Assembly (NCBI GenBank): GCA_013265495.1
Contig: MU057941.1
Location: forward strand, 124,001-177,085
Length of the DNA stretch: 53,085 bases
Source: Vicugna vicugna
Taxonomy: Eukaryota
Reading direction: 5' to 3'
Shown here: positions 34,801 to 37,800 of the stretch, piece by piece
How positions within the stretch are numbered: position 1 is the first letter of the stretch
Layout: every line of letters begins with the position of its first letter
Notes under the pieces: generated by a model
The model's input: the letters and a program-made list of their open reading frames with translations, nothing else
Told to the model about the DNA's origin: nothing
Databases searched by the model: none
Position numbers and translations under genes: made by a program

Positions 34801-37800
34801 TCCAGTCCCTGCTAATGTCACCCCTTGCTGTCATTAAGGCATCTCTTGAACACGAAGAGGGTAAGATCCTGCGCATCCAGCTGGAGTTGAACCAAGTCAA
34901 GTCTGAGATTGACAGGAAAATTGCTGAAAAGGATGAGGAAATTGACCAGCTGAAGAGGAACCACGTTAGAGTCGTCGAGTCAATGCAGAGCACTCTGGAT
35001 GCTGAGATCAGGAGCAGAAATGATGCCATCAGACTCAAGAAGAAGATGGAGGGAGACCTCAATGAAATGGAAATCCAGCTGAACCATGCCAACCGCATGG
35101 CTGCTGAAGCCCTGAGAAACTACAGGAACACCCAAAGCATCCTCAAGGTAAATGGGTTCAATAGACGGTCCGAGGGCAGTTGGAGTGAGGGCAGCCCTGA
35201 GAACAAGGTGGCTCAATGATCATTCATTCCACAGGACACCCAGCTACACCTGGATGATGCTCTCCGGGGCCAGGAGGACCTGAAGGAGCAGCTGGCCATG
35301 GTGGAGCGCAGAGCCAACCTGCTGCAGGCCGAGATTGAGGAGCTGAGGGCCTCCCTGGAGCAGACAGAGAGGAGCAGGAAAATCGCAGAACAGGAGCTCC
35401 TGGACGCCAGTGAGCGCGTCCAGCTCCTGCACACTCAGGTGAATATTAACAGAACAGTAAAAAATACAGTGGACTGAAAAGGAAATTCTTGCTCAAATCA
35501 TAGTACTACCTAAAAATTTATTCATAATGCTTTATGGAGGTTAAAGTATAAAACATTTAACATTTTGGGGTTAACAATATTTGTTTATCTAAATTGTGGC
35601 ATTCAGAGTTAACTGTCTTGTAAAAATGTATTATCAACTCAGATATTTTATGGAACAAGAAGGTATACTATTAACTTAATTAGTTTGTAAGTTCATTAGC
35701 ACATTGGACATCTTAATTTTGCTTTTATGTATTTAATATTTCTAAATTTTATATTTTAACCAGAACACCAGTCTAATCAACACCAAGAAGAAGCTGGAGA
35801 CAGACATCTCCCAACTCCAGGGAGAGATGGAGGACATTATCCAGGAAGCTCGCAATGCGGAAGAGAAGGCCAAGAAGGCCATCACTGACGTGAGCAGACG
35901 GCCACGCAGGGGTGGTCAAGCTAGAATCTTGACGGGCTATCTTATCTTAGCTCTCTCAACCTGTTTCATTTTACTGCTCATTAGGCTGCCATGATGGCCG
36001 AGGAGCTGAAGAAGGAGCAGGACACCAGCGCCCACCTGGAGCGGATGAAGAAGAAATGAAGGACCTACCGCCTGGATGAGGCTGAGCAGCTGGCCCTGAA
36101 GGGCGGGAAGAAGCAGATCCAGAAGCTGGAGGCCAGGGTGGGTTTTCTGATCAGCGTATTCCCGTCTCATTCCAATCCAATGCACAATTTTGAATACCTA
36201 GCACTTCTAGGTGATGTGGGGCACACAAGATGAACAAGACATATTCCTTGCTGCCCGAGAGCTCATAAGGGGGGGAGGTGTAGTGATTAGCCTAAGGCAT
36301 CAAGTACTACATATATAGCCAAGTAAAAGAAGTACTATGGATCTTCTGAAGAAGTAGAAATCCACTGAGTGAATGGATCATAGTAAACACCTCTAAAATG
36401 CCCATCTTCTTGCAGGTACGTGAACTCGAAGGAGAAGTCGAAAGTGAACAGAAGCGCAACGTTGAAACCGTCAAGGGTCTACGCAAACATGAGAGAAAAG
36501 TGAAGGAACTCACTTACCAAGTAAGGAAAATGTCCTGTCTTGGTTTTTCCCCTAGTCTGCAAGAAATCAAAAACCAAATATGATGGTATCTGTACTTTCA
36601 AGAAACTTACTCTTTAAAATATTTCAGACTGAGGAAGACCGCAAGAACATTCTCAGGCTCCAGGATTTGGTGGATAAACTGCAATCCAAGGTGAAAGCTT
36701 ACAAGAGACAAGCTGAGGAAGCGGTGAGTTCAGAACCCCTTGGGGTGATGGGGCAGCCTCCTGTTCTCAGTTATGTCCAAATCAATTTAGTTAAAGGAAT
36801 GAAAGAAAGAAGGGTAAAATAAGGAAGGATCAAAGGAAAATGGTTCAATAAAGATCTGAAGAATGAAAAGAAACCAACCACTTGACGAGCCAGGGGAGAA
36901 TGTCTAGGGAGGAGGAAGAGCAGATGCAAGGCTTCTGAGCGGGAAAGAGGAGAGAGGGGCACAGGGAGGAGGACAGGGAGAGAGGAGGACATGTTCTGGT
37001 CCAAGAGGCAGAAAGAATGAGGGAGACAACAGCAGACATGGAGCTTGAGATCTGGGCAGGGGGTGGGTCATGGAGTCTTCCGGGCCATGATAAGAAGTCT
37101 GGCTTTTATCTGAGATACAATGGAACACTGGGAAGCCGCAGGAGGGGTTTAATCTGGGTTGGTCACGCCCTGATTTATACATATATTTTTTTTTTAAAAA
37201 AAAGAGTATTCTAGCTACTAGGTGGAGAATGGATTGTGAGAAAACACAGTTAGGTGCAGGGAGACATTTTAGGAGGGTTTTCAGGTGGCCCAGTGGCTTT
37301 TGGAACACAAAGAGAGAAGTGGAGAGATTCAAGGTCTATTTTGGAGGTAGAAACTACAAGATATGCTAATAGGTTGTGCTTGGGAGGTGAGAGAAAGGAA
37401 AGTAAGGCTAATTCATCAGATTTATGGTTTGAGTAACCAGGTGGATGGCATAATACTACAATGGAGAGCTAAGGAAAGAACATATTTGCAGCTCAAGAAG
37501 GAAACACAAATTCTGTTTTGGAAACACTGTTTGAAATACCATTATATACATAAGTGAAGGTGTCAAGTAAGCAGTTAAATATGAAGTCTCAGAAGGTCTG
37601 GACTATGCTCAAACCACTAGATCCTCAACACTCCACCACATCTCATTCCCTAGCCTGGGATTTACCTGAAATAATAATCAAATAATATCAATTTCCTAAG
37701 TATGGAAGTATGGATATACACACCTACGTATCACAAATTAGTTCCTCTGATTATTTATGATTTTTCCTTTTCCCCTGACCTCTACGGTCTGAGAGAGAGA

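What the first reader, a model, noticed from the sequence alone, without database searches (positions are those of the whole stretch)
36045..36075. Premature stop in MYH1 exon 37 from two adjacent deletions whose net effect restores the frame
Seen: MYH2 reads AAG AAG AAC CTG GAG CAG ACG GTG AAG GAC CTG CAG CAC CGC, whereas MYH1 reads AAG AAG AAA TGA AGG ACC TAC CGC. That is a net 13-bp loss plus a 5-bp loss (exon 153 vs 171 bp), with an in-frame TGA at 36057-36059. Established: this would remove about 150 C-terminal rod residues including the assembly-competence domain, and it would be an NMD target. Inference: either a null IIx allele or young pseudogene in this animal, or more likely a consensus error in a paralog-shared tract. 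Exons 38-40 and all splice sites remain intact, which argues against old pseudogenisation. The exon is phase 0-0, so skipping it would keep the frame.
Basis: partly seen in the sequence, partly recalled or inferred. Interest (0 to 1): 0.7.

Follow-up and report, generated by a model that had tools for sequence, protein, structure and literature searches.

The report
Broken MYH1 exon, probably assembly error
The fast-muscle myosin gene MYH1 in this camelid sequence carries a stop codon made by clustered small deletions, but a second such cluster, a gap and an otherwise fully conserved protein suggest the assembly garbled near-identical myosin genes rather than the animal losing the gene; reads are needed to settle it.

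Summary
[quoted passage not shown] A 252-N gap fills exon 16. After the gap, loop 2 and exons 17-21 match camel MYH2, whereas the two loops differ in 8 of 8 other mammals. Elsewhere the protein shows no decay: 1 private residue in 1707 codons, which rejects 0.2% or more neutral drift. Camel MYH1 primers match this gene, and camel muscle expresses it. Best reading: consensus or misjoin errors among paralog-shared myosin exons (0.78). A young real null is about 0.14 and an old pseudogene about 0.03. No reads were laid and no camelid MYH1 protein was retrieved, so this is inference. The scan's earlier notes showed no such finding on other DNA.

The parts
16629..38651 (+). Gene B: MYH1 (MyHC-IIx), coding exons 3-40
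   Evidence: Exon map. Tail diagnostic sites favour MYH1 12:1 over MYH2 and 19:5 over MYH4. Published camel MYH1 qPCR primers match the spliced model with 0 mismatches and give the published 148 bp.
35985..36137 (+). MYH1 exon 37, 153 nt instead of 171, phase 0-0, AG/GT intact
36055..36067 (+). Deletion cluster 1: net 13 nt lost after 36055 and 5 nt lost after 36066, with a 10-11 nt intact island between
36057..36059 (+). In-frame TGA, 279 nt before the last exon junction
35983..36142 (+). Tract shared with MYH2: exact matches of 73 nt (35983-36055) and 65 nt (36078-36142) on either side of the lesion
36679..38540 (+). Assembly competence domain coding stretch (end of exon 39 and start of exon 40), downstream of the stop
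   Evidence: 25 of 29 residues match human MYH2 1877-1905; domain limits from PMC9664609; window coordinates worked out from the exon starts
16897..16924 (+).
   Evidence: cryptic AGs at 16902-3 (in frame), 16924-5 (frameshift) and 16929-30 (in frame)
23702..23953 (.). Run of 252 N over most of exon 16; 221-224 bases would fit
23954..26420 (+). Block after the gap (end of exon 16 to exon 21) whose protein, loop 2 included, equals camel MYH2
   Evidence: 0 differences from camel MYH2 in exons 17-21 against 11 from camel MYH4; loop 2 differs between MYH1 and MYH2 in 8 of 8 other mammals
9706..9876 (+). Gene A (MYH2) exon 37, intact; carries Leu and His where camel MYH2 has Met and Asn
   Evidence: gene A is sister to camel MYH2, support 99/97
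50849..53085 (+). Gene C: 5' end of MYH4 (exons 3-6), with an intact 144-nt exon 4 at 51152-51295

Best explanation
The stop is most likely not in the animal. MYH2, MYH1 and MYH4 lie in tandem and share long exact exon tracts, which assemblers collapse and then resolve or gap-fill with mixed paralog reads. In MYH1 this left three marks: a garbled consensus with 2-3 small deletions in exon 37, a similar one with about four deletions at the start of exon 4, and an unfilled gap in exon 16 followed by an MYH2-type block. The true MYH1 is probably an intact, constrained IIx myosin. Shown: the lesions, the shared tracts, the gap, the constraint. Inferred: that an assembly step made them. If the allele were real it would be a null (NMD; no assembly competence domain).
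For: (1) Two clusters with the same signature 19 kb apart: multi-base deletions around a 10-nt intact island, each ending in a 5-nt deletion, net 18 and 24 nt. No other exon of B or A (exons 22-40) has a length change. (2) No decay elsewhere: 1 private residue in 1707 codons against 61 mammalian fast myosins, and gene A shares it; 15 control proteins had 1-36. Neutral drift of 0.2% would give about 6.7, P(<=1)=0.007. B versus A has 186 synonymous and 44 non-synonymous codon differences in 1070. (3) A 252-N gap longer than the missing exon part. (4) Signs of swapped paralog sequence: loop 2 equals camel MYH2 right after the gap; gene A exon 37 has the MYH1/MYH4-type residues at both sites where camel MYH2 differs; the A at 36056 needs no substitution if the template was the camel-MYH2-type Met codon (inference). 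(5) Bactrian camel muscle expresses MYH1 strongly, 36.98 of 100 in longissimus (PMC10886407), with primers matching gene B. [quoted passage not shown] (7) Misassembly of Myh paralogs from exon similarity is documented for a bat transcript assembly (PMC6157964 section 13).
Against: No read or contig was laid on the locus, and no camelid MYH1 protein was retrieved, so the intact allele was never seen. The run shares cannot tell: 14 DNA runs hold 0.83-0.86 of 102 words, and the junction accounts for only about 4.4 words. Lying in a paralog-shared tract is partly circular, since most exons are shared (18 exact tracts with A and 10 with C). The constraint test does not exclude a very young null (P(<=1)=0.46 at 0.05% drift). 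The swapped blocks may be real gene conversion. The expression data are from Camelus, and the same paper's MYH4 primers also match gene B, so its isoform split is imperfect.
Confidence: 0.78

Rival explanations
1. A real, very young null haplotype of MYH1 in the sequenced animal or a small population. One complex deletion event knocked the gene out and a second followed, or both came from error-prone repair. The mRNA is degraded by NMD and IIa compensates, as in IId-null mice.
For: The lesions are clean and flanked by ordinary sequence. IId-null mice live, with compensation by IIa but severe phenotypes (PMC2132782 abstract). Drift of 0.05% or less is not excluded. No listed run holds more than 0.86 of the words, which fits a private allele as well as an error.
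Against: It needs two independent multi-deletion events on one haplotype before more than about one amino-acid change arose. Deletions of this size are far rarer than substitutions (recalled). It does not explain the gap or the MYH2-type block.
Confidence: 0.14
2. A real recombinant gene: recent conversion among MYH2, MYH1 and MYH4 built a mosaic (MYH4-like exons 5-15, MYH2-like loop 2 and exons 17-21), and the deletion clusters are scars at tract ends; the gene may survive by exon 37 skipping and cryptic exon 4 splicing.
For: The per-exon mosaic is clear. Exons 34-35 with their intron are 627 of 634 identical to MYH2. In-frame cryptic acceptors exist for exon 4, exon 37 is phase 0-0, and both net losses are multiples of three (about 1 in 9 by chance). 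Conversion in MYH clusters is reported (bioRxiv 2025.10.28.684953, passages).
Against: Skipping exon 37 removes skip residue 4, needed for antiparallel assembly. In-frame loss of exon 39 in MYH2 causes dominant myopathy. The cryptic exon 4 forms lose a motif kept in 122 of 124 full-length myosins. The strongest cryptic acceptor shifts the frame.
Confidence: 0.05
3. An older unitary pseudogene fixed in New World camelids, like the loss of Myh4 in whales.
For: Two inactivating lesions in one gene. Whales lost Myh4 by a 50-kb deletion validated with reads (PMC6157964). Fourteen runs of four organism labels have similar word shares, as they would if all carried it.
Against: No relaxed selection: drift of 0.2% or more is rejected. 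All other exons and splice sites are intact. The llama paper title points to three fast isoforms.
Confidence: 0.03

Closest known systems
Mammalian MYH1 (MyHC-IIx/IId), e.g. yak P0128, dog P0060, and camel XM_032498792.1 as given in PMC10886407
   Same: Place between MYH2 and MYH4, exon sizes, tail residues and camel primer sites.
   Different: Stop in exon 37, damaged exon 4, gap in exon 16, and a loop 2 identical to camel MYH2.
Misassembly of fast myosin paralogs (PMC6157964, section 13 read)
   Same: Near-identical coding exons of Myh1/2/4 produce mixed or wrong sequence.
   Different: That case was a bat transcript assembly; here it is genomic sequence, and the error is inferred, not shown.
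MyHC-IId null mouse (PMC2132782 abstract; PMC2140209 listing)
   Same: What a real allele would amount to: no IIx protein, possible IIa compensation.
   Different: Engineered, with growth and muscle defects; nothing here shows that the animal lacks IIx.
Cetacean Myh4 loss (PMC6157964, passage)
   Same: Loss of a fast myosin gene in a relative of camelids.
   Different: One 50-kb deletion shared across species and checked in reads; here small clustered deletions in one sequence, unchecked, in MYH1.

Membership tests
MYH1 orthologue | Lies between MYH2 and MYH4 on the same strand | tested here: met
   Gene A is sister to camel MYH2; gene C's 5' exons match camel MYH4 P0135
MYH1 orthologue | MYH1-type residues in the rod | tested here: met
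   12:1 over MYH2 and 19:5 over MYH4; outside the MYH2, MYH4 and MYH8 clades, though MYH1 itself was not one clade in the tree
MYH1 orthologue | Loop 2 distinct from the same species' MYH2 | tested here: not met
   Identical to camel MYH2; distinct in 8 of 8 other mammals. Points to conversion or a misjoin, not to another gene identity.
Unitary pseudogene / fixed gene loss | Inactivating change in the sequence | tested here: met
   TGA in exon 37 and lost acceptor of exon 4
Unitary pseudogene / fixed gene loss | Relaxed selection on the rest of the coding sequence | tested here: not met
   1 private residue in 1707 codons
Unitary pseudogene / fixed gene loss | Lesion present in raw reads | not tested
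   No reads or contigs were laid on the locus
Unitary pseudogene / fixed gene loss | Lesion shared by other individuals or sister species | tested here: inconclusive
   Word shares cannot resolve the junction; no camelid MYH1 protein or contig found
Unitary pseudogene / fixed gene loss | No transcript or protein | not testable with these tools
   Bactrian camel qPCR reports MYH1 mRNA; no data for this animal
NMD-sensitive null allele | Stop more than 50-55 nt before the last junction (rule recalled) | tested here: met
   279 nt
Assembly error in a paralog-shared tract | Lesion inside or beside sequence identical to a paralog | tested here: met
   73 and 65 nt tracts at exon 37, 98 nt at exon 4; weak, since such tracts are common in the gene
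Assembly error in a paralog-shared tract | Other assembly damage in the same gene | tested here: met
   N gap, second cluster, MYH2-type block after the gap
Assembly error in a paralog-shared tract | Reads of the same animal show the intact exon | not tested
   No reads were laid

The most novel reading that the evidence does not exclude
A New World camelid carries a natural MYH1 (IIx myosin) knockout, hit twice by complex clustered deletions, in a locus remodelled by recent MYH2/MYH4 conversion. It would be a large mammal running on IIa and IIb without IIx, the mirror image of whales, which lost MYH4.
Probability: 0.15. Interest if true: 0.65.

Novelty: not a real feature. Interest (0 to 1): 0.17.

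Why it matters
If it is an error, it matters only as a warning: the MYH1 model of this assembly is unreliable in exons 4, 16-21 and 37, and a gene-loss screen would call a false loss. If it is real, it is a natural IIx-null in a domestic-type animal. IId-null mice have growth and muscle defects (PMC2132782), so carriers would test directly whether IIx is dispensable in a large mammal that, in the llama, also expresses IIb (PMC10300182 passage). My searches found no report of MYH1 loss in camelids.

Tried and rejected
No whole genome is held for this window, so the 5' half of MYH2 could not be compared. Run shares: 14 of 24 listed runs (4 organism labels, 7 studies) hold 0.83-0.86 of 102 words; only about 4.4 words should span the junction, so this says nothing either way. 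The six RNA rows with shares of 0.09-0.13 are no evidence. No reads were laid. Three protein searches and three cluster look-ups (at most 15 members listed per cluster, the large ones holding 709 and 363) gave camel MYH2 (P0286, P0313) and MYH4 (P0009, P0135) but no camelid MYH1. P0009 looked like the orthologue (99% on exon 22) but is MYH4. None of 120 short hits had the camelid intron-4 read-through tail. A metagenome scan with an intron-3 motif found 0 matches. The llama fibre-type paper is not held. PMC13360141, PMC11869849 and PMC2873428 had nothing on MYH1. My first exon 29 boundary was off and gave false stops, corrected. Two MYH4 rows were dropped from the tree because the anchor motif was not found. 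Exons 4, 16, 17 and 37 were left out of the constraint count. The camel MYH2 primer pair gives 140 bp on gene A against 159 bp in the paper, so I rely on protein P0313 for the Met state. Rejected: old pseudogene (no drift); gene B as an extra duplicate (order and tail fit MYH1); harmless exon skipping (skip residue 4).

Full report
The window holds the 3' half of one fast myosin heavy-chain gene (A, exons 22-40, ending near 12165), a whole second gene (B, 16629-38651) and the 5' end of a third (C, from about 50850), all on the + strand. In a tree of the rod, A is sister to camel MYH2 (99/97). B falls outside the MYH2, MYH4 and MYH8 clades and sides with MYH1 at 12 of 15 sites against MYH2 and 19 of 25 against MYH4 (two MYH4 rows were dropped, and MYH1 was not a single clade). 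Camel MYH1 primers from PMC10886407 match the spliced B model exactly and give the published 148 bp. C matches camel MYH4. The animal is a camelid close to but not identical with Camelus: A differs from each camel MYH2 at 15 of about 1127 residues, some of them model errors. A New World camelid is my inference; earlier scan notes say the same (unchecked).

Observation. Exon 37 of B is 35985-36137, 153 nt, against 171 nt in A. B lacks 13 nt after 36055 and 5 nt after 36066, and reads TGA at 36057-36059. About 150 residues are lost, including the 29-residue assembly competence domain (human MYH2 1877-1905, PMC9664609 passages; 25 of 29 matched downstream of the stop). The stop is 279 nt before the last junction, so NMD is expected by the usual rule (recalled). 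Of 124 full-length myosins fetched, 115 have the intact motif, 5 have it with substitutions and 4 models lack the region. Skipping the exon keeps the frame but removes 57 residues that include skip residue 4: the exon's end aligns to beta-myosin 1795-1819, and G1807 is required for antiparallel assembly (PMC5958240 passage).

First, the start of exon 4 is damaged in the same way. From the last shared intron bases to the donor, B has 121 nt and C has 145; the alignment needs about four gaps (4, 12, 3, 5), and the acceptor G is gone. C is a paralog, so the exact gap sizes are approximate. The lost stretch includes a motif kept in 122 of 124 full-length myosins. Cryptic AGs would give 114, 92 or 87 nt; the one with the best pyrimidine tract shifts the frame. 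Second, 252 N cover most of exon 16, where 221-224 bases would fit, as for an estimated gap. Third, right after the gap, loop 2 and exons 17-21 equal camel MYH2 (0 differences, against 11 from camel MYH4). MYH1 and MYH2 differ in loop 2 in 8 of 8 other mammals and by 2-7 residues in those exons. Fourth, exon 37 of A has Leu and His where camel MYH2 has Met and Asn. B's junction is explained without a substitution if its template had the Met codon (deletions of 1, 12 and 5 nt); this is inference, as 6 of 29 named MYH1 proteins also have Met.

Constraint. Leaving out exons 4, 16, 17 and 37, B has 1 residue in 1707 codons that none of 61 mammalian fast myosins shows, and A shares it; 15 control proteins scored 1-36, and B scored 4 when camel MYH4 was removed from the pool. 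Simulated neutral drift gives a mean of 6.7 such residues at 0.2% (P(<=1)=0.007) but only 1.8 at 0.05% (P=0.46). B and A differ at 186 synonymous and 44 non-synonymous codons of 1070. All other exons have normal sizes and splice sites, with one GC donor. An old pseudogene is therefore excluded; a very young null is not.

Best explanation. Two clusters of multi-base deletions with the same look, a gap and paralog-type blocks in a gene that is otherwise untouched fit assembly trouble better than mutation. B shares 18 exact tracts of 31 nt or more with A and 10 with C, and both lesions touch one, though that is partly circular. Misassembly of Myh paralogs through exon similarity is described for a bat transcript assembly (PMC6157964, section 13). 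A real null needs two rare complex events before about one amino-acid change. Bactrian camel muscle has abundant MYH1 mRNA (36.98, 4.75 and 22.83 in three muscles; PMC10886407 passages), though that paper's MYH4 primers also match B. A llama study is titled as evidence for three fast isoforms (title only, in the reference list of PMC10300182). I put the artefact at 0.78, a young real null at 0.14, a real conversion-scarred mosaic at 0.05 and a fixed loss at 0.03.

What stays open. No reads or contigs were laid on the locus, and no genome is held. Fourteen of 24 listed runs hold 0.83-0.86 of the sampled words; the junction is worth about 4.4 of 102 words, so the shares cannot decide. Protein searches and cluster look-ups gave camel MYH2 and MYH4 but no camelid MYH1, and a metagenome scan was empty. 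The intact allele was thus never seen, and the verdict rests on inference.

Comparison with what is known. It works like a null allele on paper: IId-null mice survive with IIa compensation but have severe phenotypes (PMC2132782 abstract), and whales lost Myh4 through a read-validated 50-kb deletion (PMC6157964 passage). It fails membership as a fixed gene loss on relaxed selection, and read support was not tested. Searches found no report of MYH1 loss in camelids; most subscription journals are not in the library. The scan's earlier notes held nothing near this place, in look-alike stretches or by words.

Verdict: the sequence feature is there as described, most likely an assembly error in a hard locus. 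Interest 0.17; 0.65 if reads show it is real.

Noticed in passing
window 16897-16924: Second deletion cluster at the acceptor and 5' end of MYH1 exon 4, 24 nt short against MYH4.
   Followed up: yes
window 23954-26420: After the N gap, MYH1 loop 2 and exons 17-21 equal camel MYH2. If this is real conversion, camelid IIx has a IIa actin-binding loop, unlike 8 of 8 other mammals checked.
   Followed up: partly
window 17135-22935 and 26518-29821: MYH1 exons 5-15 differ from camel MYH4 at 3 residues (21 from camel MYH2), and exons 22-27 at 4; introns 4 and 6 flanks are about 96-97% identical to gene C. Extensive MYH1/MYH4 homogenisation or collapse.
   Followed up: partly
window 34808-35441 and 8331-8964: Exons 34-35 with their intron are 627 of 634 identical between MYH1 and MYH2: very recent conversion or assembly collapse.
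   Followed up: partly
P0135: Camel MYH4 is flagged 'LOW QUALITY PROTEIN' with one sequence for two Camelus species, which may mean a real shared lesion in Old World camel MYH4; the protein shows no X, so the place is unknown.
   Followed up: no
window 21202-21204: MYH1 exon 13 ends at a GC donor; the older camel MYH4 model P0009 lacks the last 14 residues of this exon, as if the predictor missed the same GC donor.
   Followed up: no
window 9475-9960: In MYH2, exon 36, its 90-nt intron and exon 37 form one open frame, so retention of that intron would insert 30 residues in frame.
   Followed up: no
window 43280-44240: Tandem-repeat-like stretch in the MYH1-MYH4 intergenic region with long open frames; not examined.
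   Followed up: no
PMC10886407 Table 1 against window 26153 and 26314: The published camel MYH4 qPCR primers match MYH1 with 0 and 1 mismatches, so that study's MYH4 values may include MYH1.
   Followed up: partly
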